Positions 1 to 35,263 of a stretch of 37,878 bases of DNA are shown piece after piece. Numbering within the stretch: the stretch's first letter is position 1; each line of letters starts with the position of its first letter. The notes beneath the pieces are model-generated. The model saw nothing but the letters and a program-made list of their open reading frames with translations. It was not told the DNA's origin and ran no database searches. The stretch lies in IMG/VR virus record IMGVR_UViG_2654587996_000002; one strand, 5' to 3'. This DNA comes from a virus. Lineage: Duplodnaviria; Heunggongvirae; Uroviricota; Caudoviricetes. Both the position numbers and the translations under genes were made by a program.

Positions 1-267
1 ATGAGGGTATCCAGACAAGCATCGAATAATTTGTTTGTTCGAGAGGGGTGTGACTGGTCTGCTAAAGCGGTATATGCAGCCCTTGAAAACAAAGGCACAG
101 ACCTCCCTGAACTGGAAAGGGAGTTAGGATTAAAAAGCGGATCAATGCGCAATGTGTTTTACCGCCAGTGCCGTAAATACGAAGCCGCCATCGCCGAAAA
201 AATAGGGGTTGAACCTGCTGTAATCTGGCCCAGCAGATACCAGGTGGACGCCAGAGAAGTGGCTTGA
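1..267 (+). CDS. ner: Ner-like DNA-binding protein (early transcription regulator), possibly 5'-partial at window edge
   Basis: C-terminal EPAVIWPSRYQ matches the Mu Ner / Nlp signature (Mu Ner ends ...KPEVIWPSRYQAGE); lies directly upstream of the transposase. Confidence 0.8.
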   Translation: MRVSRQASNNLFVREGCDWSAKAVYAALENKGTDLPELERELGLKSGSMRNVFYRQCRKYEAAIAEKIGVEPAVIWPSRYQVDAREVA

Positions 268-277
268 TGGGGGATGT

Positions 278-2368
278 ATGTGGGTAACAGCAAAAGAATG
301 TGTTGGTCTTCCTGATTTACCAATGATGGAACATAACATTCGCCATCGACTCACAAAAGCAGCTGCGGGAAATGCAGCCATGTTACGCAAACGTAAGGGG
401 ACAAAAGCAATCGAATTTAATATCGATTGTTTGCCTTCTGGCGCACAACAAGTATTGCGTGAACGTTATGCCCTGCAACTGATGACGCAAAAAGCCGATG
501 AATCACCGGCTCCGGTGGTGACAAAGGCCAGACGCTCACCTGCCGTGGTTGATGCGGTGGAGGCATATCGCGGATCACCCCAACTGATGGTCGAACGCCT
601 CAATGCCCTGACTGAAAACCAACGTAAAGTGGCAGAGGCACGAATAGCGATCGTCAGCGAGGCGCTGAAAATCGCGCAACAACCCGGCTTTAGTTGCGCT
701 AAGGCTATCCGGTTCCTCGTTAACAGCCTGGCACGATCACAACTGGACGAACGCATTGTGGCAATGGTTGAAACGGCGAACGCCAAAAAGGGAAACAGCC
801 GCGTGTTGAGTGAAATAACGCTGAAACGCTGGATTGCGGCCTTTAACAAGGCACAGAACGCCGCTGAACGCCTGCTTTTACTGGCACCGGGTAAACGCCA
901 GGAAATAAAAGCCGAAGATATTAGCTGGTTGCCCGAGTTTCTGGCGCAGTATCGCCAGTCAAACGGCCGACCAATGACCGAGGCTTACGAGGATTTTGTT
1001 GCTGAATGGCAGCACCGGCACGCTGATGAGCCTTATATGCTCGATATCATGCCCTCTTATGACACCATTCGCCGCGCGATGAAGAAACTGCCGGAAGTGG
1101 TGAAACAAAAAGGCCGGGTGACCGGCAGTGAATACCGCCAGCTTGAGGGATTCACGCGCCGCGACTGGTCAAAAATGCCGGTGAATTATGTCTGGATTGG
1201 TGACGGTCACGGCATGAAGCTGAAATGCGCGCACCCGGTTCACGGGCGGCCATTCGCACCGGAAGTGACCTTTGTTATCGATGGTGGCACGCGCTTTGTG
1301 GTGGGCTGGAGCCTTGACCTGGCTGAAAATGTTTTCGCCGTAGCCGGTGCCATACAGCACGGCATTCGCCATCACGGCAAACCGTTTCTGTATTACTCGG
1401 ATAATGGCTCCGGGGAAACCGCCGACATCCTGGATAAGGAGATTGTGGGGATCCTGCCACGACTGGGGATTAATCACCCGACAGGGATTGCCGGTAACCC
1501 GCAGGGACGGGGCATTATCGAACGGCTTAACCGCACATTACCGATGCGCATAGCCCGTAAATACCGCACCTATTTCGGGAAAGGTGCAGATCGCGAGACG
1601 TTACGTAAAACCAACCGCGATTTACGCTCGGCATTCACTGCCCTGCAACAGGGCAAGCGGCTGAACGCCCGGCAGCAGTCAGCGATGCGTGATTTACCGT
1701 CCTGGTCTGAACTGATTGATGCCATTCGTGACGGCGTTGAGTGGTACAACAGCCGGCCGCACGATGAATTACCCATGAAGCCGAACGGCAAACATTACAG
1801 CCCGGCGGAGTTCAGAAAAAAACGCCTGGCGGAAGAGGACACGGAAATTGAATGGCTGTCCGATGTTGAACTGCGGGACATGTTCCGGCCGATGGTGGAA
1901 CGCCCTGTAAGACGCTGTGAAATACGCTGGCTGAATAATATTTACTACGCGCCCGAGCTGCGTGATGAACATGGCCGCAAAGTGCTTATCAGCTATGACA
2001 TTCATGATGCCGAACGAATTACCGTGCGTCGCCCGGATGGCAGCGTGATTTGCGAGGCGGTATGGGACGGCAATAAACGCGAAGCCTTCCCGGTCAGCGC
2101 AGAATACTACAAACAGCAGCAGCGCCTTAAAGGTATGCGTAAACGCGCAGAGGAAAAAATCCGTGATGCCGAGGATGAGGTTGTCAACGTGCTGGAGCAC
2201 AAGCCACAGGAGCCATGGCTGGAAAATATATACCGCCCTGTGGGTAATACAGTGACCGTTCAGCAACCGGTCGCTGAGGATGAACCTGATGAAGAATACG
2301 AGCGTAATTTCCAGCGGGGATTGCAGCTGCTTGAAGCGAAATTAAAAGAAAATGACCCTCTGGCCTGA
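278..2368 (+). CDS. Mu-type DDE transposase A
   Basis: 696 aa; N-terminus MWVTAKECVGLPDLP resembles Mu A (ELWVSPKECANLPGLP); size and position after ner match Mu A. Confidence 0.9.
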   Translation: MWVTAKECVGLPDLPMMEHNIRHRLTKAAAGNAAMLRKRKGTKAIEFNIDCLPSGAQQVLRERYALQLMTQKADESPAPVVTKARRSPAVVDAVEAYRGSPQLMVERLNALTENQRKVAEARIAIVSEALKIAQQPGFSCAKAIRFLVNSLARSQLDERIVAMVETANAKKGNSRVLSEITLKRWIAAFNKAQNAAERLLLLAPGKRQEIKAEDISWLPEFLAQYRQSNGRPMTEAYEDFVAEWQHRHADEPYMLDIMPSYDTIRRAMKKLPEVVKQKGRVTGSEYRQLEGFTRRDWSKMPVNYVWIGDGHGMKLKCAHPVHGRPFAPEVTFVIDGGTRFVVGWSLDLAENVFAVAGAIQHGIRHHGKPFLYYSDNGSGETADILDKEIVGILPRLGINHPTGIAGNPQGRGIIERLNRTLPMRIARKYRTYFGKGADRETLRKTNRDLRSAFTALQQGKRLNARQQSAMRDLPSWSELIDAIRDGVEWYNSRPHDELPMKPNGKHYSPAEFRKKRLAEEDTEIEWLSDVELRDMFRPMVERPVRRCEIRWLNNIYYAPELRDEHGRKVLISYDIHDAERITVRRPDGSVICEAVWDGNKREAFPVSAEYYKQQQRLKGMRKRAEEKIRDAEDEVVNVLEHKPQEPWLENIYRPVGNTVTVQQPVAEDEPDEEYERNFQRGLQLLEAKLKENDPLA

Positions 2369-2443
2369 AATAAAAAAATAACCCGAGCGGCGACTCAGGT
2401 TATTTGATTAAACAAAGGAACTACACAAACGCGAGGTAATAAT

Positions 2444-3376
2444 ATGACCGATATAAACGATGTAATCAAGACCATTGATGAACTTATTGATGGCGGCGTA
2501 CTGACGCAGTATGCCATCGCCAGAGAGGCGGGAATTTCCGACGGCACATTATCGGCTTTCCGTAAGGGAAAATATAAAGGTGATAACGCTGCTGTGGCTG
2601 CTTCCCTGCGTTCCTGGTATGAGAACTGGAATAAACAAAGCGCACTGCCGGAACCGCCGCAGTTTGTGGAAACGCAGACAGTCCAGGAGCTGCGCGCGCT
2701 GTTTCAGGCGGTTCGCCTGATGGGCTGTATTAACGTCATTGTGGGCGTACCGGGTGTGGGTAAAACGGCCACGGCCCGCAATTACTGTCAGGAGCAACCG
2801 AACACCTGGATGATCACCCTGTCGCCCGCGCATTCCAGCGTCACGGAGTGTATGCTGGAGCTGGCAGAGGAACTGGGGATTGATTACACCCGCGCGAACA
2901 AGGGGGCGTTATCCCGCGCCATCCGCCGTCGCCTGATGGGAACGCGTGGACTGGTGATTGTTGATGAGGCGGATCATCTTGGTATTGACGGTCTGGAACA
3001 ACTGCGTGCAATCCAGGACGCCACGGGGATCGGGATGGTGCTTATTGGTAACCCGCGCGGACTGTTTAAGGGTGGACGCCGCACCGTTGATGATTTATCG
3101 CGCCTGTTCAGCCGTCTTGCCCGTACAAAACAACTTCGCAAGGCCAAAAAGGCGGATGTGCTGGCTATTGCCAGGGCATGGGGGATTAGTGGTGAGGCCG
3201 AGCTGGCTGTCATGCAGGCTATCGCTGAAAAGCCGGGAGCCTTACGCGTTCTGACACATACGCTTAACCAGGCGTGGATCACCGCCAGCGGTGAAGGTGC
3301 CGCGCTGACAGAAAAACATATTAATGCGGCCTTTAAAGAGGTTTATACCAACCCTGAATTACTCTCACAGGTGTGA
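2444..3376 (+). CDS. Mu B-like ATP-dependent target DNA activator (AAA+)
   Basis: 310 aa with Walker A GVPGVGKT and Walker B-like LVIVDEAD; N-terminal HTH-like region; immediately downstream of A. Confidence 0.88.
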   Translation: MTDINDVIKTIDELIDGGVLTQYAIAREAGISDGTLSAFRKGKYKGDNAAVAASLRSWYENWNKQSALPEPPQFVETQTVQELRALFQAVRLMGCINVIVGVPGVGKTATARNYCQEQPNTWMITLSPAHSSVTECMLELAEELGIDYTRANKGALSRAIRRRLMGTRGLVIVDEADHLGIDGLEQLRAIQDATGIGMVLIGNPRGLFKGGRRTVDDLSRLFSRLARTKQLRKAKKADVLAIARAWGISGEAELAVMQAIAEKPGALRVLTHTLNQAWITASGEGAALTEKHINAAFKEVYTNPELLSQV

Positions 3377-3378
3377 TT

Positions 3379-3600
3379 ATGGCTGCATTTAATATTCCTG
3401 ATATCTACGGACGCTTTTACCTAGTGAATTTCGATAACGTGAAAGTGATTTCACTGGCCGAAAATAAAGAATGTGGCGATTTACTTTTTGAATTTAATGA
3501 CCGCACGCGAATGGTGATATCTGCCGGACTTGATCGCGAAGGTGCGACAGAGGTTTACAGTGGAATATGCCGTTCTGTTGGTGCAAAACAAGTCAGCTAA
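3379..3600 (+). CDS. hypothetical early protein (73 aa), in the slot occupied by kil in Mu
   Basis: ATG overlaps the B stop (TGATTATG); positional analogy only, no recognisable motif. Confidence 0.45.
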   Translation: MAAFNIPDIYGRFYLVNFDNVKVISLAENKECGDLLFEFNDRTRMVISAGLDREGATEVYSGICRSVGAKQVS

Positions 3601-3612
3601 ATGAGGTGTTAT

Positions 3613-3867
3613 ATGAATATGCAATCCTGCGGTAACAAAATGAATTTATTCGACTCCCTGAACAGCGCACGCCGTCTGACTGAACTTGCCGGTGCAGTGC
3701 TGGAGCGCAGCAAACGCTACCCACAACGTTATGCCCTGAAAACCACGCCGCCGGTAAACGAAGTTAAGGGAACCGGTGAAATTGAAATCACTGTTCAGAC
3801 CAATGGCCTGCGCCGCCGTGTAAAAGCCACCCGCATAAGCGGATGTACGGTCTACTGGGAAGTATGA
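3613..3867 (+). CDS. hypothetical early protein
   Basis: ORF with GAGG 6 nt upstream of ATG 3613; tight packing in early operon. Track start 3601 is an alternative. Confidence 0.4.
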   Translation: MNMQSCGNKMNLFDSLNSARRLTELAGAVLERSKRYPQRYALKTTPPVNEVKGTGEIEITVQTNGLRRRVKATRISGCTVYWEV

Positions 3868-3941
3868 AGTTACTTCATGGTTCGGCTCTGTCATCAGGTC
3901 AGACGCCGGATGAGTTATTAAGACGAAATGAGGACAACAGG

Positions 3942-4235
3942 ATGAGAAAAGTACGCGTTATTTTTGAATTTAACCACGTAATGCATGAAGTAAAGCCAGC
4001 CGGTAATGATAGTCAGGAAATCACGGAGGGGGTTACTGCCACTGTAAAAATCGAACGTGATACGGAGAACAGACCGACAGGACCCTGTGATGTTTATGCT
4101 CAAATTCTTAAATATCACAGCCCCACAATTATTCAGTTTCTGACAGATGAACTTCAGGGTTCCATGCAGGCTCTGGGGGTGAAAAGCAGCATTGAGCGCC
4201 GTTCTTTGCAGAACGCACCAGATACATTGCAATAA
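3942..4235 (+). CDS. hypothetical early protein
   Basis: AGGA 7 nt upstream of internal ATG 3942; track ORF begins 3843, so start uncertain. Confidence 0.4.
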   Translation: MRKVRVIFEFNHVMHEVKPAGNDSQEITEGVTATVKIERDTENRPTGPCDVYAQILKYHSPTIIQFLTDELQGSMQALGVKSSIERRSLQNAPDTLQ

Positions 4236-4246
4236 GGAAAAACAAA

Positions 4247-4777
4247 ATGGCAAAACGCGTTACAAAATTAAAGGCCGCAGCCGAGGCCGCACCGCAGACC
4301 CGCGAAGAAGTCAGCCGTGATATCCGCACCCTGGGCGATATTCAGCGAGAGGCGCTGCGCCTGGAAACGGCAATGAATGACGAGGTGGCTGAAATCACCG
4401 CCCGTTATACGCCGCAGATTGAAAATCTTAAAAAGCAAATCAAAGTGCTTTTTAAAGGGATTCAGGACTGGTGCAAAACCAACCGGGATGAGCTGACGAA
4501 CGGCGGCAAAACCAAAACAGCCAATCTGACCACCGGAACGGTGTCATGGCGGCTGGGAACGCCATCATGTAGCGTCAGCCGTGATGTGGAAGGTGTGATT
4601 GAAATGCTGCGCCGTATGGGGCTTGAGCGATTCATCCGCACGAAAGAGGAAGTGAACAAGGAAGCCGTCCTGGCGGAGCCGGATGCAGTGAAAGGCATTG
4701 CCGGTATTAAGGTGAATAAAGGCGCTGAAAGTTTTTATGTCGAGCCTTTTGAACAGGACGCCGGACTGAATAAATAA
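4247..4777 (+). CDS. gam: Gam host-nuclease inhibitor (Mu Gam / Ku-like DNA-end binding)
   Basis: 176 aa; motifs LETAMNDEVAEIT, WCKTNRDELTNGGKTKTANL and GLERFIRTKEEVNKEA align closely with recalled Mu Gam. Confidence 0.9.
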   Translation: MAKRVTKLKAAAEAAPQTREEVSRDIRTLGDIQREALRLETAMNDEVAEITARYTPQIENLKKQIKVLFKGIQDWCKTNRDELTNGGKTKTANLTTGTVSWRLGTPSCSVSRDVEGVIEMLRRMGLERFIRTKEEVNKEAVLAEPDAVKGIAGIKVNKGAESFYVEPFEQDAGLNK

Positions 4778-4874
4778 CACCGCATTAAATCTTTAAATAT
4801 CACATCGTTTTAAGTATGGCGCTCGCGTCAGGGGACTGCTTGCGCCTGAAAGCTGAAAATAAGGAATCGGAAAT

Positions 4875-5417
4875 ATGGCATATTTTTATTTCAAATTAGA
4901 CCGTGTGCAGACAAATAAATATTTCACCAAATATCAACAGACTGTTTTACCGCTACGCAACAGTATTCTTCGGGCATTACTGAAAAATACAGGCGCTGCC
5001 GGATTGCGCTTAAAGCCGTTCGCCATGGACAGAGTCAGTGAGTTTTATTTTGCCGGTGCTCTGCCTGCGGGCTGGCGTAAGCGCGATGATGTGGCTTTTA
5101 TCGGGGACGGACAGTGCTTTATTGCCAGACCTGATGAGTTATGCCCTGAAGGACCGGCGATTGCCGCAATGGTTGAAGCCGCTGAACGCGATTTAAGAAA
5201 ACATCCTGATTTCCTTGTCTGGCTCTGTGAAAAGCTGGGGGTAATGAGAATCCCCTCCATGTTTAACACGGACTCCTGGTGGACCCCGTCGCTCTCCCGT
5301 GATGCTCTGTGTGTGGTGTTTAAAGTAGGCGCTTATGGCAGGGAAATAAACGGGTGTATTCCTGAAGAATGCCAGGAAATTAAACATTCTGAATATGTGG
5401 CGCTTACGGAGGAATAA
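4875..5417 (+). CDS. hypothetical early protein (180 aa)
   Basis: ORF preceded by 97-nt intergenic gap; AT-rich 5' end; no recognisable domain. Confidence 0.5.
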   Translation: MAYFYFKLDRVQTNKYFTKYQQTVLPLRNSILRALLKNTGAAGLRLKPFAMDRVSEFYFAGALPAGWRKRDDVAFIGDGQCFIARPDELCPEGPAIAAMVEAAERDLRKHPDFLVWLCEKLGVMRIPSMFNTDSWWTPSLSRDALCVVFKVGAYGREINGCIPEECQEIKHSEYVALTEE

Positions 5418-5420
5418 TTC

Positions 5421-5954
5421 ATGATTGATGCAAAAGTGCTTGAAGGGGTTAAAAACTGGCTGAGTATTTACGGACGTCTGACCTGCGGTGTACTGGCTGA
5501 AAAAATGAATATGCCGCCATCCTCCATGGTTTATTTTCTGCGTGATGCGGTTGATGCAGGCGTGCTGACGGAATGTAACGGTTTTTATGATATTCCGCGT
5601 CCCCGCCCGGTGCAGCCGGTTCGTCGCAAATGCAGCCAGGAATGTGCGGCTGATGATGTTCAGTGGTGCAGCTTCAGAAAATCCCTGCCGTGGATTGAGG
5701 GGCATGATATTCCGTCGATGGCGTGGGAATTTGCTCAGGGCGTTCTGACCTGTGAAACCGTTTATGTGGTGGCTGAAGTTGATGAGCAGGCCATGAAAGA
5801 AGGCGTACCCCAGTTTGTGATGGCGTATATCGACATTCGCCTGGGTGTCATTATCTGCGGTTTAAGCGGCTGGAATATCACCGCGCGTGTTCTGCGCTAC
5901 CTGATTGTTGACCGGACAGCAGCGCCTGCCGGGATATCTGCGGAGGTGGCGTAA
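5421..5954 (+). CDS. hypothetical early protein, possible N-terminal winged-helix
   Basis: GGAGG 8 nt upstream of ATG; 4-nt gap from previous gene; Cys-rich middle region. Confidence 0.5.
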   Translation: MIDAKVLEGVKNWLSIYGRLTCGVLAEKMNMPPSSMVYFLRDAVDAGVLTECNGFYDIPRPRPVQPVRRKCSQECAADDVQWCSFRKSLPWIEGHDIPSMAWEFAQGVLTCETVYVVAEVDEQAMKEGVPQFVMAYIDIRLGVIICGLSGWNITARVLRYLIVDRTAAPAGISAEVA

Positions 5955-6469
5955 TGTTCTTTAAAACATCAAACCCTTCCGCGCTGGCTGCGTGGCAAAA
6001 ATACCAGCAGGACTGCCAGAAAGTTAAGGATGAGGCAAAACGCCTTGAGGCCGTGCTGAATGTTGCGTGCCGGTCGGTATTTGTATCCGGTATCAGTGGA
6101 TTTTGTTTTAAGGGGCTGCGCTTTATGGATGACAAATATCCTTTTCATCGCGACTTATGGAGAAAACCGACTGCGTCGAATGGCTGGAGCTGCACGCCGC
6201 GCACATCACGTATCCCTAAAACCCTGCGTGTTGCCTCTGATGAACTGAACATTCTGTGGCGTGAATATTCGCCCGTCACGTATGCCAGAACCGATGCCCT
6301 GTTGTTCTGGCTGGGCATTGACTTCTCAGCAATATTGTATGGTCCCGTGAACTGGTTCTGCGTTGACAATGTGATTTATCTTCAGTGCGAAGATGATTCC
6401 GCAAAACGGAAAATGACCGAAATTCTGTCTGATGAGTTTTATGCTGCTGAAAAGCGAGTCAGGGGGTGA
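5954..6469 (+). CDS. hypothetical early protein (171 aa)
   Basis: Start overlaps previous stop (TAATG); no recognisable domain. Confidence 0.5.
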   Translation: MFFKTSNPSALAAWQKYQQDCQKVKDEAKRLEAVLNVACRSVFVSGISGFCFKGLRFMDDKYPFHRDLWRKPTASNGWSCTPRTSRIPKTLRVASDELNILWREYSPVTYARTDALLFWLGIDFSAILYGPVNWFCVDNVIYLQCEDDSAKRKMTEILSDEFYAAEKRVRG

Positions 6470-7767: not shown

Positions 7768-8053
7768 TTCGCAGTTGTTCTGGTGTTTATATATCACATC
7801 GTTTTTCGGTGCATTCGTCATTACACGATGGCTGTGCCGGAAAGTTATCAGTATTTTTCATAAAAAATACCTGATTGGGCTGGCGACGACTTCTCTGATT
7901 AATGCACTTGCCAGATATCATAAGGGGGAATACTACTCAAGAATAAAAACTGATGATGGTTTTAATATTTTTGTGATTCCTCCGGAGTATCGGGTTCAGC
8001 TCGATCGGGAAAATAATATCTATCATATCAGCAGGAGTGTTGATACAGCATGA
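7757..8053 (+). CDS. hypothetical membrane-anchored protein (98 aa)
   Basis: AGGAG 7 nt upstream of ATG; N-terminal hydrophobic segment LFWCLYITSFFGAFVIT; stop overlaps start of next gene. Confidence 0.5.
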   Translation: MDSSSQLFWCLYITSFFGAFVITRWLCRKVISIFHKKYLIGLATTSLINALARYHKGEYYSRIKTDDGFNIFVIPPEYRVQLDRENNIYHISRSVDTA

Positions 8054-8559
8054 GAGGGAAACTGATATCCGCTATTCATGTGGCAAAGCGCGAGCTTGCC
8101 CTGGATGATGAGATCTACACATCCGTACTACTGGAAGCCACCGGCAAAACCAGTTGCCGGGATATGTCACCGGATGAGTTATCCCGCGTGCTGGATGTTT
8201 TCAAAAAACGCGGTTTTAAAGTGCGTCAGAAACCGGTTAACCGGGCCTTAAAACCGGGTACGGTGACCGCCAAAATTCGCGCCATCTGGAAGGTGATGCA
8301 CCGGCAGGGCTTTATCTCTGATGGCGGGGAAACAGCCCTTAACCACTGGGTGAAATCGCAGACGGCCGCGCAGAACGGCGGCGAAGGTGTGGCTAACTGG
8401 CAGTGGCTGGAACAACAACCCGCACTGGCCTCGGATGTGCTGGAGCGTCTCAAACGCTGGCACCGCCGCAAGATGCTGGATGTGCTGGGGATGTCAGCGC
8501 GTACAGTGATGAGTTATGAGCACGTTTGCAGGCTGTATGAAGAATCCTCCCCCTTTTAA
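8050..8559 (+). CDS. gemA: GemA / Mu gp16-like regulatory protein (DUF1018-like)
   Basis: N-terminal pattern KLISAIHVAKRELALDDEIY...LEATGKTSCRDMSPDELSRVLDVFKKRGF resembles Mu gp16 family; last gene before the early terminator. Confidence 0.65.
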   Translation: MRGKLISAIHVAKRELALDDEIYTSVLLEATGKTSCRDMSPDELSRVLDVFKKRGFKVRQKPVNRALKPGTVTAKIRAIWKVMHRQGFISDGGETALNHWVKSQTAAQNGGEGVANWQWLEQQPALASDVLERLKRWHRRKMLDVLGMSARTVMSYEHVCRLYEESSPF

Positions 8560-8563
8560 CCCC

Positions 8564-8594
8564 AAATCCCGCCACAGCGCGGGATTTTTATTTT
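8564..8594 (+). terminator. Rho-independent terminator at end of early operon
   Basis: Hairpin ATCCCGC-CACAGC-GCGGGAT followed by TTTTATTTT, directly after the GemA-like stop. Confidence 0.75.
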
Positions 8595-8629
8595 AAACTT
8601 GCCCTGTGTAATGATGACCGGAGGCGGGT

Positions 8630-9052
8630 ATGGCTGAAACACAGATGAGCATGTTTGGTGACAGCGAACAGCTGCACGCGCTGATTGACCGTCTGGATGA
8701 TATTCCTGATGATGAGCTGAAAAAGAACTGGCCCGGCACGCTGCGGGACCTGGTTGATGTGATAAGTGCTGAACTGCACCGTCAGGGGATTGAACCTGCT
8801 CAGGCGGGAATGCTTGCCCGTAAAGTTGCGGCCGCACAGGCCGGGTACATGGGCGGGCGTGGTTATTATCTCCCGGTTGGTGAATCCCTTTTCACCGAAC
8901 TGCGCAATAATGAAATTTTTTCCCGCTGGAGCCAGGGCGAAAAAATTGAAACCCTGCGCCGCCACTACCAGATGTCAGAGACGCAGATTTACTCCGTTAT
9001 CCGCAACCAGCGTCGCCTGCATCAGGAGCGCACGCAGCCCCGGCTTTTCTGA
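8630..9052 (+). CDS. Mor/C-family transcriptional activator (middle/late gene activator)
   Basis: 140 aa; GGRGYYLPVG ... IETLRRHYQMSETQIYSVIRNQRR matches Mor/C family pattern (GG..YIP.G ... C-terminal HTH); GGAGG RBS; follows early terminator. Confidence 0.75.
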   Translation: MAETQMSMFGDSEQLHALIDRLDDIPDDELKKNWPGTLRDLVDVISAELHRQGIEPAQAGMLARKVAAAQAGYMGGRGYYLPVGESLFTELRNNEIFSRWSQGEKIETLRRHYQMSETQIYSVIRNQRRLHQERTQPRLF

Positions 9053-33080: not shown

Positions 33081-35129
33081 ATGTCAGACTCCCAGTGGAA
33101 AATGCTCTCCGCCATGCCCGGAGAGTTTTCAGTCAAGGTTGCCGGTGGCACGGTGGCATTTATTGAAAGTCCTTTCAGGCCTTCGGGTAATAAAGGGGGG
33201 ATCACCTTCGCAGACTGCGTGATCCGCTTCAGCACGAAAGAGCCATTATGGGTAATGCCGGTATCCGGCAATCCCAGCGCAGAAATCACCAGTTCAGGTG
33301 TGACCGGCATTATTCCGATCACATCTGACGTGGCCGGAACACTCACGCCTTCTGACTGGAATGCACCGGATAACGCCGGACCGTCTGGCGGTACAAATGG
33401 CAGCAGTACAGAGCCGGAGTATTACTATGTGCTTCCACTGGCCGGGCAGTCCAACGGGATGGCCTACGGTGAAGGGCTTCCGCTACCGGCTTCATTCGAC
33501 CGCCCTGAACCGCGCATTAAGCAACTGGCACGTCGCAGCACGGTAACGCCCGATGGTACGTCGTGCACATATAACGATATCATTCCCGCAGACCACTGCC
33601 TGCATGATGTGCAGGACATGAGCGGGATAAACCACCCGAAAGCTGACCTGAGTAAAGGGCAGTATGGTTGTGTCGGCCAGGGGCTGCATATTGCCAAAAA
33701 ACTGCTGCCTTATATTCCGCAGAATGCCGGGATACTTCTGGTTCCCTGCTGTCGTGGTGCTTCGGCATTCACCACCGGTGATGACGGCTCATTCAGTGAG
33801 GCCAGCGGTGCTTCCGCTGATTCTTCACGCTGGGGAGCCGGTAAACCCCTGTATCATGACCTGGTAAGCCGTACCAGAGCGGCGCTGGCGAAGAACCCGA
33901 AAAACAAACTTCTGGCAGTGGTCTGGATGCAGGGAGAAGCAGACCTTGCATCGGGAAGTCAGCAGCATAATGGTTTATTCACAGCCATGGTTCAGCAGTT
34001 CAGAACCGACCTGTCTCCACTTGCAGCGCAGTGCGTGAGTGGAAATGCTGCCACGGTGCCGTGGATTTGTGGTGACACCACGTATTACTGGAAAAACACG
34101 TATGCCACGCAGTATGAAACAGTCTATGGAGCATATAAAAATCTGACCGCACAGAATATTTTCTTTGTGCCGTTCCTGACGGATGAGAATGGACAGAACA
34201 CGCCAACGAATGCTCCGGTGGAAGACCCGGATATTGTGGCTGTCGGGTATTACGGTGCGGCATCCCGTACCCAGGGCAGTTTTGTCTCCACACAGCGTGA
34301 CAGCCATTTCAGCTCATGGGCACGCAGGGGCATCATTTCTGACCGTCTGGCCTCAGCCATTCTGCTCCATGCGGGACGCACGGCTGAAGTTATGGGCGGA
34401 CAGGCCGTGCCGCCGGATGAAAAACCATCCCCTGACACGCCATCAACGCCGTCAACGGACGGGAAATCAATGACGACGCTGTTTTCTTACCGCGCATCGG
34501 AGTCAGGCGGAGCACTGACGCCACAGGGCTGGGGGGCGGAAGGCGGTAGTGCTGCTGTTGTGGATGATGTCGGTGCCAGCGGGGGCAAGGCGCTGAAGCT
34601 GACAAAACAGACCGGAAAGTCATGGTTTATGCAGCATGATGCCGGTAATGGTGCCGACCTGCTGGAAAAAGGTGGCCTTGTCAGCTGTCGTTTTAAACTT
34701 GATGGCGCGCTTACGGCTAATCAGTACGCACTGGCGCTGTACTGGCCGGTTTCTTCGCTTCCTCAGGGCGTCACACTGGAAGGTAATGCCGGTCATAACC
34801 TGCTGGCATCGTTTTACGTTCAGAGCGATGCCACAGACCTTATCGTGATGTACCACAAGGGTAATCCAGACCAGAACACGAAGCTGGGTTCATTCGGTGC
34901 ATTTAATAACGAGTGGCATACGCTGGCATTCCGTTTTGCCGGTAATAACAGCATTCAGGTGACGCCGGTGATTGATGGTAAGAACGGGGAACCGTTCATG
35001 CTGTCTCAGTCACCTGTCGGTTCTTTTGCGGCAGACAAGTTACGCCTGACCGATATCACCAGTAATGCAACGTATCCGGTACTGATTGACAGCATTTTGG
35101 TGGAAGTGAATAACCCGTCAGCAGGATAA
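33081..35129 (+). CDS. large accessory protein: SASA-like carbohydrate O-acetylesterase core plus C-terminal lectin/LamG-like domain
   Basis: 682 aa; LPLAGQSNGMAYGEG (GQSN motif) and VVWMQGEADLASG (QGE motif) as in sialate O-acetylesterase-like esterases; Gly/Ser/Thr/Pro linkers; C-terminal ~200 aa resembles concanavalin/LamG-type carbohydrate-binding folds. Confidence 0.6.
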   Translation: MSDSQWKMLSAMPGEFSVKVAGGTVAFIESPFRPSGNKGGITFADCVIRFSTKEPLWVMPVSGNPSAEITSSGVTGIIPITSDVAGTLTPSDWNAPDNAGPSGGTNGSSTEPEYYYVLPLAGQSNGMAYGEGLPLPASFDRPEPRIKQLARRSTVTPDGTSCTYNDIIPADHCLHDVQDMSGINHPKADLSKGQYGCVGQGLHIAKKLLPYIPQNAGILLVPCCRGASAFTTGDDGSFSEASGASADSSRWGAGKPLYHDLVSRTRAALAKNPKNKLLAVVWMQGEADLASGSQQHNGLFTAMVQQFRTDLSPLAAQCVSGNAATVPWICGDTTYYWKNTYATQYETVYGAYKNLTAQNIFFVPFLTDENGQNTPTNAPVEDPDIVAVGYYGAASRTQGSFVSTQRDSHFSSWARRGIISDRLASAILLHAGRTAEVMGGQAVPPDEKPSPDTPSTPSTDGKSMTTLFSYRASESGGALTPQGWGAEGGSAAVVDDVGASGGKALKLTKQTGKSWFMQHDAGNGADLLEKGGLVSCRFKLDGALTANQYALALYWPVSSLPQGVTLEGNAGHNLLASFYVQSDATDLIVMYHKGNPDQNTKLGSFGAFNNEWHTLAFRFAGNNSIQVTPVIDGKNGEPFMLSQSPVGSFAADKLRLTDITSNATYPVLIDSILVEVNNPSAG

Positions 35130-35263
35130 AAAAATGCCGCCGGGAAAGGGAAAACAAGGAAACCGGCGGCAAAGGTCGATACATCCAAAGCAAAAATGCA
35201 GGACGCCTTTTTAACCAACAGGTATTAACTATGTCAACACCATGCCAATAATGGAGATGAATA

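What the first reader, a model, noticed from the sequence alone, without database searches (positions are those of the whole stretch)
2369..2443. Imperfect hairpin in the A-B intergenic region
AACCCGAG-CGGCGA-CTCAGGTT (one mismatch) directly after the transposase stop and before the B start could modulate relative A:B expression, but it lacks a U-tract.
Basis: seen in the sequence. Interest (0 to 1): 0.2.

Follow-up and report, generated by a model that had tools for sequence, protein, structure and literature searches.

The report
Backward-facing terminator between transposition genes
The hairpin between the transposase (A) and B genes of this Mu-like prophage is real and conserved, but it reads as a classic transcription stop signal on the opposite strand, so it most likely ends a short antisense RNA rather than tuning the A:B messenger directly.

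Summary
It has 12-bp arms (2376-2387 and 2394-2405) and a 6-nt loop, and starts 7 nt after the A stop codon.

There the stem is followed by UUUUAUUU, which makes a textbook intrinsic terminator pointing leftward, against the A-B operon.

Relatives carry five unrelated stem sequences at the same spot. Each is directly preceded on the + strand by a run of 5-8 A, which is a U-tract on the minus strand. Only two of the five have even a weak + strand T-tail.

Across the eight distinct type-1 sequences (the window's own hairpin family), every variable stem pair keeps pairing on the minus strand (96/96 cells) and breaks it on the plus strand (88.5%).

A σ70-like promoter on the minus strand overlaps the B start codon. 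It sits in the same register in three hairpin types and would give a ~63-nt antisense RNA, but coding constraints confound this evidence. Two published O157 Sakai RNA datasets report no RNA there.

Mu itself lacks the hairpin.

Verdict: a selected, antisense-oriented terminator. A P22 sar-like antisense RNA is likely but unproven. This is a new member of a known kind, of modest interest.

The parts
278..2368 (+). Gene A (Mu-type transposase, 696 aa); stop codon TGA at 2366-2368
   Evidence: ORF list. Pfam Mu-transpos_C 2.4e-17 and HTH_Tnp_Mu_1.
2366..2375 (-). U-rich tail of the minus-strand terminator. It reads TTTTATTTCA on the minus strand and TGAAATAAAA on the + strand, so it overlaps the A stop codon.
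   Evidence: An A-run of 5-8 nt abuts the stem in all five hairpin types.
2376..2387 (.). Left arm of the hairpin: AAATAACCCGAG on the + strand. It is the 3' arm on the minus strand. C2384 is the mismatched base on the + strand.
   Evidence: Every locus retrieved by B homology at >=94% identity has identical arms. The per-segment variability count pre-selected loci on the inner 8 bp of each arm, so only the outer 4 bp were free to vary there.
2388..2393 (.). Loop, CGGCGA on the + strand. It varies freely among relatives (GGGTGA, GGGTAA, GGGCGA, CGGACA, CAGCCA).
2394..2405 (.). Right arm of the hairpin: CTCAGGTTATTT on the + strand. It is the 5' arm on the minus strand. A2397 faces C2384 (C·A on the + strand, U·G on the - strand).
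2406..2432 (.). Hypervariable spacer between the hairpin and the B ribosome-binding site. It would form the body of the predicted antisense RNA.
   Evidence: At least 4 haplotypes with indels among phages whose B is >=97% identical. 94% of alignment columns are variable.
2433..2436 (+). Shine-Dalgarno GAGG of B
   Evidence: Read from the sequence; 7 nt upstream of the ATG at 2444.
2441..2469 (-). Candidate sigma-70 promoter on the minus strand: -35 TTGATT (2469..2464), 17-nt spacer, -10 CATATT (2446..2441, over the B start codon). An overlapping alternative is ATTACA (2466..2461)-16-TATTAT (2444..2439). This part is inferred, not shown.
   Evidence: It scores at the 98th percentile of best-in-130-nt background. 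The same register recurs in hairpin types 1-3. It is confounded by coding and RBS constraints.
2368..2432 (-). Predicted ~63-nt cis-antisense RNA, starting near G2432 and ending in the U-tract at about 2368-2372. This part is inferred.
   Evidence: Promoter plus terminator geometry. The fold has an unstructured 5' half and a terminator hairpin: -16.9 kcal/mol, z -3.8. No transcript evidence was found.
2444..3376 (+). Gene B (MuB-type AAA+ transposition ATPase, 310 aa)
   Evidence: ORF list. Pfam Phage-MuB_C 4.7e-25 and AAA_22.

Best explanation
The hairpin is the stem of a Rho-independent terminator that works on the minus strand, that is, on RNA made leftward, antisense to the A-B early operon.

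An RNA polymerase moving leftward out of the start of B transcribes AAAUAACCUGAG-UCGCCG-CUCGGGUUAUUU followed by UUUUAUUU. It releases at about 2366-2372, exactly at the stop codon of A, so antisense transcription never enters the transposase gene.

The most likely source of that transcription is a weak sigma-70 promoter on the minus strand that overlaps the B start codon (TTGATT-17-CATATT, 2469..2441). Promoter and terminator together would make a ~63-nt cis-antisense RNA. It would be complementary to the A-B spacer up to the edge of the B Shine-Dalgarno sequence, and so lie inside the ribosome footprint.

By analogy with P22 sar and lambda OOP, pairing with leaky early mRNA would block B initiation and/or trigger duplex cleavage. 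That would act as a post-transcriptional brake on B and on downstream early genes.

What is shown:
- The structure exists.
- It recurs at the same position with unrelated sequences.
- Its strand polarity is minus.

What is inferred:
- That it terminates in vivo.
- The promoter.
- The existence of the RNA and its effect on B.

My probabilities: minus-strand terminator about 0.7; dedicated short antisense RNA from the B-start promoter about 0.35-0.4.
For: 1. Terminator scans flag it on the minus strand only.

2. The minus-strand hairpin is more stable: -15.7 vs -10.9 kcal/mol, z -5.2 vs -3.4. Of 15 hairpin variants folded on both strands, 12 are more stable on the minus strand, 2 are equal and 1 is more stable on the plus strand.

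3. Five sequence-unrelated hairpins sit immediately after the A stop in related prophages:
- type 1: E. coli, Citrobacter, Edwardsiella
- type 2: Sodalis, Symbiopectobacterium
- type 3: L060-63 and L088
- type 4: L101/L102
- type 5: L117/L167
Each has an A5-8 run abutting the 5' side on the + strand.

4. In the type-1 family, 96/96 stem cells pair on the minus strand. All 5 variable pairs change on one side only, to G·U or U-A. On the plus strand the same 5 pairs are broken (88.5% paired). Type 4 shows the same asymmetry: A·C on +, G·U on -.

5. All loci retrieved by B homology at >=94% identity have identical arms, while the loop and neighbouring sequence vary. In one search, 67% of loop columns, 94% of spacer columns and 73% of the last 60 nt of A vary. 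That count pre-selected loci on the inner 8 bp of each arm.

6. The minus-strand promoter-like site at the B start is about the 14th best of 113,538 minus-strand positions. It is the top hit, in the same register, in types 1-3. Terminator-bearing lineages score a mean of 8.9 against 5.8 for terminator-less ones.

7. The same method pairs the second-best minus-strand promoter (35237..35208) with the only other clean intergenic minus-strand terminator (35171..35135). That unit maps to EcOnc37, an Hfq-bound RNA detected in the Sakai Sp18 prophage (PMC4104026 Table S2). So this phage family does make leftward terminator-ended small RNAs.

8. Where the phage needs a sense-strand terminator, it has a canonical one with a + strand U-tract (8564-8587).
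Against: - No transcript is documented. The Hfq-CRAC orphan-peak table for Sakai lists only EcOnc37 in Sp18. The RNase E CLASH tables have nothing at the junction; they hold only one single-read antisense hybrid inside B.
- The promoter is only an 8-9/12 consensus match. Its -10 is built from the start codon plus the AT-rich RBS spacer, and its -35 from conserved codons 8-9, so its conservation may be a by-product of coding. Low synonymous diversity at codons 2-10 (0.29 vs 0.46) is also expected for any 5' coding end.
- The -10 is broken in L066. No equivalent promoter is seen in types 4 and 5.
- The predicted start lies at the edge of the SD, not over it.
- Types 1-3 belong to one B-protein clade, so they are not fully independent.
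- High-GC relatives have junction hairpins without T-runs on either strand, which could point to a sense-strand role.
- Sense-strand leaders are A-rich anyway, which inflates the chance of an A-run 5' of the stem.
Confidence: 0.45

Rival explanations
1. It is a minus-strand terminator, but only an insulator. It stops diffuse or spurious antisense transcription arising anywhere in B or further right in AT-rich phage DNA. This keeps such transcription out of the transposase gene, ner and the operator/repressor region. There is no dedicated small RNA and no regulatory pairing with the B ribosome-binding site.
For: - All the strand-polarity evidence applies equally.
- Types 4 and 5 have the terminator but no recognisable promoter near the B start.
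- No discrete RNA is reported at the junction.
- One antisense read inside B exists in the CLASH data.
Against: - Only this junction and one other carry clean minus-strand terminators in 38 kb. A general insulation strategy would predict more.
- A promoter-like site in the top ~0.01% of minus-strand positions lies 36 nt upstream of the terminator, in a conserved register.
Confidence: 0.25
2. It is a sense-strand mRNA element. The + strand hairpin would act either as a 3'-exonuclease barrier that stabilises the A segment, or as a 5' protective hairpin for a processed B mRNA after cleavage in the A-run. Either way it would set the A:B ratio.
For: - The + strand hairpin is stable and non-random (-10.9 kcal/mol, z -3.4).
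- Hairpins at this junction also occur in high-GC relatives without T-runs.
- Intercistronic stabiliser hairpins are an established mechanism (mal, pap and puf operons; my own knowledge).
Against: - All 5 variable stem pairs in the type-1 family, and the type-4 imperfection, break + strand pairing while keeping - strand pairing.
- A stabiliser does not need an A-run that abuts the stem.
- Pure A-runs lack the uridines of the RNase E consensus (my own knowledge).
- A ribosome terminating 4-7 nt upstream would melt the 5' arm.
Confidence: 0.15
3. It is a bidirectional or leaky sense terminator. In this hairpin type the + strand tail UUAUUUGAUU lets a fraction of early transcripts stop after A, giving more A than B message.
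For: - The + tail has 7 U in 10 nt.
- Type 4 also has TTTGAATT.
- The A-tract / U-tract symmetry is typical of bidirectional terminators.
Against: - Types 2, 3 and 5 have no + strand T-tail (TTATCGG, TTAAACG, CTGAAAG), so this is not the conserved function.
- The + stem core has only 5 G/C-containing pairs around a C·A mismatch.
- Neither scan calls it on the + strand.
- B and about 15 downstream early genes depend on read-through.
Confidence: 0.1
4. It is a neutral palindrome or a relic, for example the leftover terminator of a lost leftward gene, with no present function.
For: There is no direct functional data.
Against: - Stems of five unrelated sequences sit at the same position.
- The arms are invariant next to a hypervariable spacer.
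- Substitutions are one-directional and preserve pairing.
- The 51 nt around the hairpin is >=99% identical in 151 of 233 E. coli records. The surrounding 801 nt is >=99% identical in only 2.
Confidence: 0.05

Closest known systems
P22 sar RNA (immI region, arc-ant)
   Same: A short antisense RNA encoded in an intercistronic gap between two co-directional phage genes. It is transcribed against the operon, ends at an intrinsic terminator, and is complementary to the region around the downstream gene's ribosome-binding site. Sources: PMC2629481 and PMC5415839, which cite Liao et al. 1987 and Wu et al. 1987; the details of the geometry come from my own knowledge.
   Different: sar is experimentally mapped (68-69 nt) and covers the ant RBS. 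Here no RNA has been detected, and the predicted start only abuts the SD. The promoter is weak and unproven. The target is a transposition ATPase, not an antirepressor. There is no sequence similarity, and no Rfam family matches.
Lambda OOP RNA
   Same: A 77-nt leftward RNA with its own promoter and terminator, lying between two rightward genes (cII and O). It is antisense to the end of the upstream gene and triggers duplex cleavage (PMC5415839).
   Different: OOP overlaps the 3' coding end of cII. Here the terminator stops exactly at the A stop codon, so the RNA would not overlap A at all.
EcOnc37 of prophage Sp18 (same phage family, different locus)
   Same: A leftward small RNA unit with a sigma-70 promoter and an intrinsic terminator that abuts the stop codon of a rightward gene. 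It was detected by Hfq crosslinking in O157 Sakai (PMC4104026 Table S2). Its counterpart in the window is 35237..35127.
   Different: It lies at the far right of the prophage, has a much better promoter (TTGACA), and has experimental support. The A-B element has none.
IS10 RNA-OUT / transposon antisense control
   Same: A mobile element restraining its own transposition machinery with a cis-antisense RNA at a translation-initiation region (my own knowledge).
   Different: RNA-OUT targets the transposase itself and is a stable stem-loop RNA without this terminator architecture. Here the partner ATPase B, not the transposase A, would be targeted.
Canonical and bidirectional intrinsic terminators
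   Same: A G/C-containing stem, a 4-6-nt loop, a U-tract directly 3' of the stem and an A-tract 5' of it, which extends the stem.
   Different: Such terminators usually lie at operon ends or between convergent genes. This one sits inside a co-directional operon and faces against it.
A-B junction of phage Mu
   Same: The same gene order (ner-A-B) and a short non-coding gap before the B ribosome-binding site.
   Different: Mu has a 38-nt gap with no stable hairpin (-6.6 and -5.3 kcal/mol, z -1.4 and -0.5). Instead it carries TTTAAAC/TTTAATT repeats.

Membership tests
Rho-independent (intrinsic) terminator, minus-strand orientation | Stable G/C-containing stem of 5-14 bp with a 3-8-nt loop | tested here: met
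   13 pairs with a 4-nt loop in the MFE fold (12 + 6 as drawn), -15.7 kcal/mol, z -5.2. Flagged.
Rho-independent (intrinsic) terminator, minus-strand orientation | U-rich tract immediately 3' of the stem | tested here: met
   UUUUAUUU follows the extended stem, and 13 of 15 nt are U after the GC core. The same holds in all five hairpin types.
Rho-independent (intrinsic) terminator, minus-strand orientation | Evolution preserves pairing on the transcribed strand | tested here: met
   96/96 cells are paired on the minus strand against 88.5% on the plus strand. All 5 variable pairs are G·U-type on the minus strand and mismatches on the plus strand.
Rho-independent (intrinsic) terminator, minus-strand orientation | RNA 3' ends or termination demonstrated in vivo or in vitro | not testable with these tools
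   No Term-seq or RNA-seq access. The published tables searched contain nothing at this site.
Rho-independent terminator, plus-strand (sense) orientation | U-rich tract immediately 3' of the stem on the + strand | tested here: not met
   Neither scan calls it on the + strand. The tail after the full stem is GATTAAAC. Types 2, 3 and 5 have no T-tail at all.
Phage cis-antisense small RNA (P22 sar / lambda OOP type) | Own promoter on the strand opposite the operon, at small-RNA distance from the terminator | tested here: inconclusive
   TTGATT-17-CATATT sits 36 nt upstream of the terminator. It scores at the 98th percentile, and the same register recurs in types 1-3. It is confounded by coding, broken in L066, and absent in types 4 and 5.
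Phage cis-antisense small RNA (P22 sar / lambda OOP type) | A discrete small transcript is detected | tested here: not met
   It is not listed among Hfq-CRAC orphan peaks or RNase E CLASH hybrids of O157 Sakai. These are limited datasets from repressed lysogens, so this is weak negative evidence.
Phage cis-antisense small RNA (P22 sar / lambda OOP type) | Complementarity to the translation-initiation region or 3' end of a target gene | tested here: inconclusive
   Complementarity is automatic for a cis-antisense RNA. The predicted 5' end (about 2432) abuts the SD at 2433-2436 but does not cover it.
Sense-strand intercistronic stabiliser or processing hairpin | Pairing conserved on the sense (mRNA) strand | tested here: not met
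   All five variable pairs are disrupted on the + strand. L054 has two + strand mismatches and folds at only -6.4 kcal/mol.
Any curated Rfam family | A covariance-model match | tested here: not met
   cmscan of 1-6000 on both strands at E<=10 gave only two chance snoRNA hits, both elsewhere.
Dispersed palindromic repeat (REP/BIME-like mobile element) | Multiple copies in unrelated genomic contexts | tested here: not met
   It is a single copy in the window. In 5,426 E. coli genomes it is found only at the A-B junction of this prophage.

The most novel reading that the evidence does not exclude
Sp18-type transposable prophages, found in about 4% of complete E. coli genomes and also in Citrobacter, Edwardsiella and Sodalis-group bacteria, encode a previously unnoticed sar-like cis-antisense RNA. 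It would be made from a promoter overlapping the B start codon and terminate at the A stop codon.

This RNA would gate synthesis of the MuB target-capture ATPase and the early genes downstream. That would be an RNA-level safety lock on replicative transposition, one that classical Mu lacks.

The hypervariable spacer would give each lineage a private antisense specificity, comparable to plasmid incompatibility RNAs. This would matter in strains carrying up to four copies of the prophage.
Probability: 0.3. Interest if true: 0.55.

Novelty: new member of a known kind. Interest (0 to 1): 0.35.

Why it matters
Regulation of Mu-type transposable phages is described entirely in terms of proteins (repressor, Ner, Mor, C, Com). 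The searches made here found no description of an RNA-level or antisense element in their early operon.

A conserved terminator that faces against the operon at the A-B junction implies leftward transcription in the early region of a widespread prophage family, including Sp18 of E. coli O157:H7 Sakai. If it ends a regulatory antisense RNA, it would add a post-transcriptional brake on the transposition ATPase. It would also give a simple handle, a 30-nt stem, for testing how these prophages keep transposition silent.

There is also a methodological point. A hairpin "without a U-tract" should be read on both strands, and G·U versus A·C asymmetry can assign the functional strand from sequence alone.

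If instead it is only an insulator, it is an ordinary terminator in an unusual place, and of minor interest.

Tried and rejected
1. Rfam search of 1-6000 on both strands: no relevant family.

2. A small leftward protein gene ending in the hairpin (minus-strand ORF 2547..2395, 50 aa): the frame is interrupted or runs through the hairpin in relatives, so it is not conserved.

3. A dispersed REP-like repeat: single copy, confined to this prophage.

4. Long-range + strand pairing between the end of A (CCCTC) and the B SD: the 141-nt fold is not better than shuffles (z -0.36), and the CCCTC is not conserved in Sakai.

5. Published RNA evidence:
- Tree 2014 Hfq-CRAC table: only EcOnc37 in Sp18.
- Waters 2017 RNase E CLASH: nothing at the junction.
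- Sy 2020 and the 2026 HnrS paper: no supplementary text is held.
- Full-text searches for ECs4945/ECs4946, Mu antisense RNA and Mu-like antisense transcripts: nothing relevant.

7. Isolated phages: none in the phage collection has a B protein more than 50% identical, apart from copies of this prophage inserted in Stx phages.

8. Synonymous-site constraint at B codons 2-10: low (13th lowest of 312 windows), but uninformative because 5' coding ends are constrained anyway.

9. The per-segment variability count selected loci by the inner 8 bp of each arm, so arm invariance there is partly by construction. The unbiased statement is that every locus retrieved by B homology at >=94% identity has identical arms.

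Full report
CONTEXT. The window is a Mu-like transposable prophage.
- ORF 278..2368 (696 aa) carries the Pfam Mu transposase C-terminal and Mu DNA-binding domains.
- ORF 2444..3376 (310 aa) carries Phage-MuB_C and AAA domains.
- A Ner-like HTH_35 protein lies at 1..267.
- Essentially all long ORFs are on the + strand.
- The A-B junction is at least 90% identical in 232 of 5,426 complete E. coli genomes, with up to 4 copies per genome. These include prophage Sp18 of O157:H7 Sakai, where A = ECs_4945 and B = ECs_4946.
- No isolated phage in the phage collection has a B protein more than 50% identical. Mu, D108, SfMu and the Yersinia Mu-like phages are all about 49%.

THE OBSERVATION. The arms are AAATAACCcGAG (2376-2387) and CTCaGGTTATTT (2394-2405), and the loop is CGGCGA. 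The hairpin starts 7 nt after the A stop codon and ends 27 nt before the B Shine-Dalgarno sequence (GAGG, 2433-2436).

The 34-nt hairpin folds at -10.9 kcal/mol on the + strand (z -3.4). On the minus strand it folds at -15.7 kcal/mol (z -5.2; 0 of 200 shuffles as good). The difference exists because the single + strand mismatch, C2384·A2397, is a U·G wobble on the minus strand.

The statement that it "lacks a U-tract" is true only for the + strand, and only partly so, since that tail is TTATTTGATT. On the minus strand the stem is followed by TTTTATTTCA. The consensus scan and my own census call it a terminator on the minus strand only. The element is single-copy in the window and is found in E. 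coli only in this prophage.

COMPARATIVE ANATOMY. I collected about 150 A-B junctions through B-protein homology from genomes, viral contigs and metagenomes (read). Five hairpins with unrelated stem sequences occupy the same position, directly after the A stop:
- Type 1: AATAACCCGAG/CTCAGGTTATT (E. coli, Citrobacter, Edwardsiella, L065). The loop varies freely.
- Type 2: GCCATTCGG/CCGAATGGC (Sodalis, Symbiopectobacterium, L066, L070, L162).
- Type 3: AACAGTCCG/CGGACTGTT (L060-63, L088).
- Type 4: GCGACG/CGCCGC (L101, L102).
- Type 5: GCGGCC/GGCCGC (L117, L167).

In all five, a run of 5-8 A abuts the 5' side of the stem on the + strand, often including the stop codon itself. On the minus strand this is a U-tract directly 3' of the stem. 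The + strand 3' flank is T-rich only in types 1 and 4, and weakly so. In types 2, 3 and 5 it reads TTATCGG, TTAAACG and CTGAAAG. Folded as minus-strand RNA, each type is a clean hairpin followed by U6-8.

Mu, D108-like, SfMu-like, Shewanella, Vibrio, Rheinheimera and Brenneria relatives have no hairpin. High-GC relatives (Chromohalobacter YPCBV-1, L114, L116) have strong junction hairpins without T-runs.

WHICH STRAND IS SELECTED. In an alignment of the eight distinct type-1 sequences, the 12-pair stem is 100% paired on the minus strand (96/96 cells). Five pairs vary, each on one side only, and each change gives G·U or turns U·G into U-A. On the plus strand the same alignment is 88.5% paired, and all five variable pairs are simply broken. 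Type 4 shows the same asymmetry: A·C on +, G·U on -.

So every informative substitution favours the minus strand: the ancestral wobble, five further changes in type 1, and one in type 4. None favours the plus strand. Two variants (L066, L070) are neutral. If either direction were equally likely, seven out of seven has a probability of about 0.01. The events are not all strictly independent, so this is an approximation.

All loci retrieved by B homology at >=94% identity have identical arms, while the loop, the A-run length and above all the spacer 2406-2432 vary. In one search, 94% of spacer columns and 73% of columns in the last 60 nt of A are variable. That count pre-selected loci on the inner 8 bp of each arm, so it is partly circular for the arms.

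I conclude that an RNA hairpin on the minus strand, followed by a U-tract, is the selected object. That is a leftward Rho-independent terminator.

WHAT IS BEING TERMINATED. Because all genes here run rightward, the terminated transcript must be antisense.

A position-weight scan found a promoter-like site on the minus strand: TTGATT-17-CATATT (2469..2441), with an overlapping alternative ATTACA-16-TATTAT that one search also reported. Its -10 lies over the B start codon, 36 nt upstream of the terminator. It scores at the 98th percentile of the best hit in random 130-nt stretches, and is about the 14th best of 113,538 minus-strand positions in the window. The same register is the top hit in hairpin types 1, 2 and 3: TTGAxx-17-CATAxT, and TTGCTA-17-CATAAT in Edwardsiella. 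Terminator-bearing lineages score a mean of 8.9, against 5.8 for terminator-less ones. The product would be a ~63-nt RNA (about 2432 to about 2368) with an open 5' half and a terminator hairpin.

As a positive control, the second-best minus-strand promoter in the window (TTGACA-18-TAAAAA, 35237..35208) lies just upstream of the only other clean intergenic minus-strand terminator (35171..35135). After correcting a +127-nt coordinate shift between Sakai genome versions, this unit coincides with EcOnc37. EcOnc37 is an Hfq-crosslinked RNA flagged with a Rho-independent terminator in Sp18 (PMC4104026 Table S2).

CAVEATS ON THE PROMOTER.
- The -10 is made of the ATG plus the AT-rich RBS spacer. The -35 is made of conserved codons 8-9.
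- Types 1-3 are one B-protein clade, so they are not fully independent.
- The -10 is broken in L066.
- Types 4 and 5 show no comparable promoter.
- Reduced synonymous diversity at codons 2-10 (0.29 vs 0.46) is expected at any 5' coding end.
- No RNA at this junction appears in the Sakai Hfq-CRAC orphan-peak list or in the RNase E CLASH tables. The only trace is a single-read antisense hybrid inside B.

The dedicated antisense RNA is therefore an inference, at about 0.35-0.4. The leftward terminator itself is much better supported, at about 0.7.

MECHANISM PROPOSED. Leftward RNA polymerase leaving the 5' end of B forms the hairpin and releases in the U-tract that overlaps the A stop codon, so antisense transcription never enters A.

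If the B-start promoter is real, the resulting cis-antisense RNA pairs with early mRNA from the A stop to the edge of the B SD, inside the ribosome footprint. It would then hinder B initiation and/or create a duplex substrate for RNase III. This parallels P22 sar at arc-ant and lambda OOP at cII-O (PMC2629481, PMC5415839; further details from my own knowledge).

RIVALS.
- A pure insulator against diffuse antisense transcription (0.25).
The strand asymmetry, the abutting A-run and the proximity of the terminating ribosome all count against it.
- A leaky bidirectional attenuator (0.1). It is not supported in types 2, 3 and 5.
- A neutral relic (0.05).

COMPARISON WITH KNOWN SYSTEMS, AND NOVELTY. 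It meets the sequence-level definition of an intrinsic terminator on the minus strand and fails it on the plus strand. It matches no Rfam family.

It resembles the sar/OOP class in geometry, but two defining features of that class, a proven promoter and a detected transcript, are respectively inconclusive and not met. I therefore file it as "works like", not "is". I found no report of an antisense terminator or RNA in the early operon of Mu-type phages.

It is best called a new member of a known kind. Interest is modest (0.35). It would rise to about 0.55 if the antisense RNA and its control of B were shown.

Noticed in passing
window 35127-35237 (minus strand); L084 42467-42537: A complete leftward small-RNA unit: promoter TTGACA-18-TAAAAA (35237..35208) plus terminator 35171..35135 with T7, directly after the stop of the 682-aa ORF 33081..35129. 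After a +127-nt shift between Sakai genome versions, the homologous spot in Sakai Sp18 is EcOnc37, an Hfq-bound RNA (Tree 2014). The window and Sakai sequences differ here, with different hairpins.
   Followed up: partly
L001 3319-3358 (Mu); L104, L105, L108, L090, L123, L124, L140-L148, L165 A-B junctions: Mu-like lineages that lack the hairpin instead carry 2-5 copies of TTTAAAC / TTTAAxx between the A stop and the B start. L104 has five copies in 59 nt. The A stop itself usually lies within ATTTAA. The function is unknown; it could be a protein-binding or RNA motif.
   Followed up: no
window 8564-8595 (+): A canonical + strand terminator, AAATCCCGCC-ACAGCG-CGGGATTT followed by TTATTTTA. It lies between the last early ORF (8050..8559) and the Mor-like ORF (8630..9052), so it is probably the counterpart of the Mu early-operon terminator.
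   Followed up: no
window 2406-2432: The spacer between the hairpin and the B SD is hypervariable. At least 4 haplotypes with indels occur among phages whose B proteins are >=97% identical, next to invariant hairpin arms. This suggests recombination or diversifying change in what would be the body of the antisense RNA.
   Followed up: partly
L004-L006, L066, L162 versus L001 3305-3325: The start of the type-2 element (GTAAAAAAGCCATT...) is identical over 14 nt to the last codons of the Mu A gene (CGT AAA AAA GCC ATT TAA), but in a different frame. This hints that the 5' arm and A-run of that terminator derive from Mu-like C-terminal coding sequence.
   Followed up: no
L004 3001-3926: The B gene of the Sodalis MAG copy is a pseudogene (11 stops in the expected frame), yet the junction hairpin is intact.
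   Followed up: no
L127 370-450; L114 1380-1498; L116 1300-1390: High-GC Mu-like phages (Chromohalobacter YPCBV-1 and two metagenomic contigs) have one or two very strong GC hairpins at the A-B junction without T-runs on either strand. The YPCBV-1 gap folds at about -38 kcal/mol.
   Followed up: no
window 2000-2800 versus E. coli genomes: This prophage family occurs in 232 of 5,426 complete E. coli genomes, with up to 4 copies per genome and once on a 167-kb plasmid record (NZ_CP074995.1). It is also found inserted inside Stx1a- and Stx2c-converting phages (LC727895, LC727881).
   Followed up: no
PMC5286369 supplementary file 4; Sakai old coordinates 5044636-5044664 (minus strand): The RNase E CLASH data contain one single-read hybrid labelled asECs4946 (antisense inside B) joined to rRNA. 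It is at noise level, but it is the only published trace of leftward RNA in B.
   Followed up: partly
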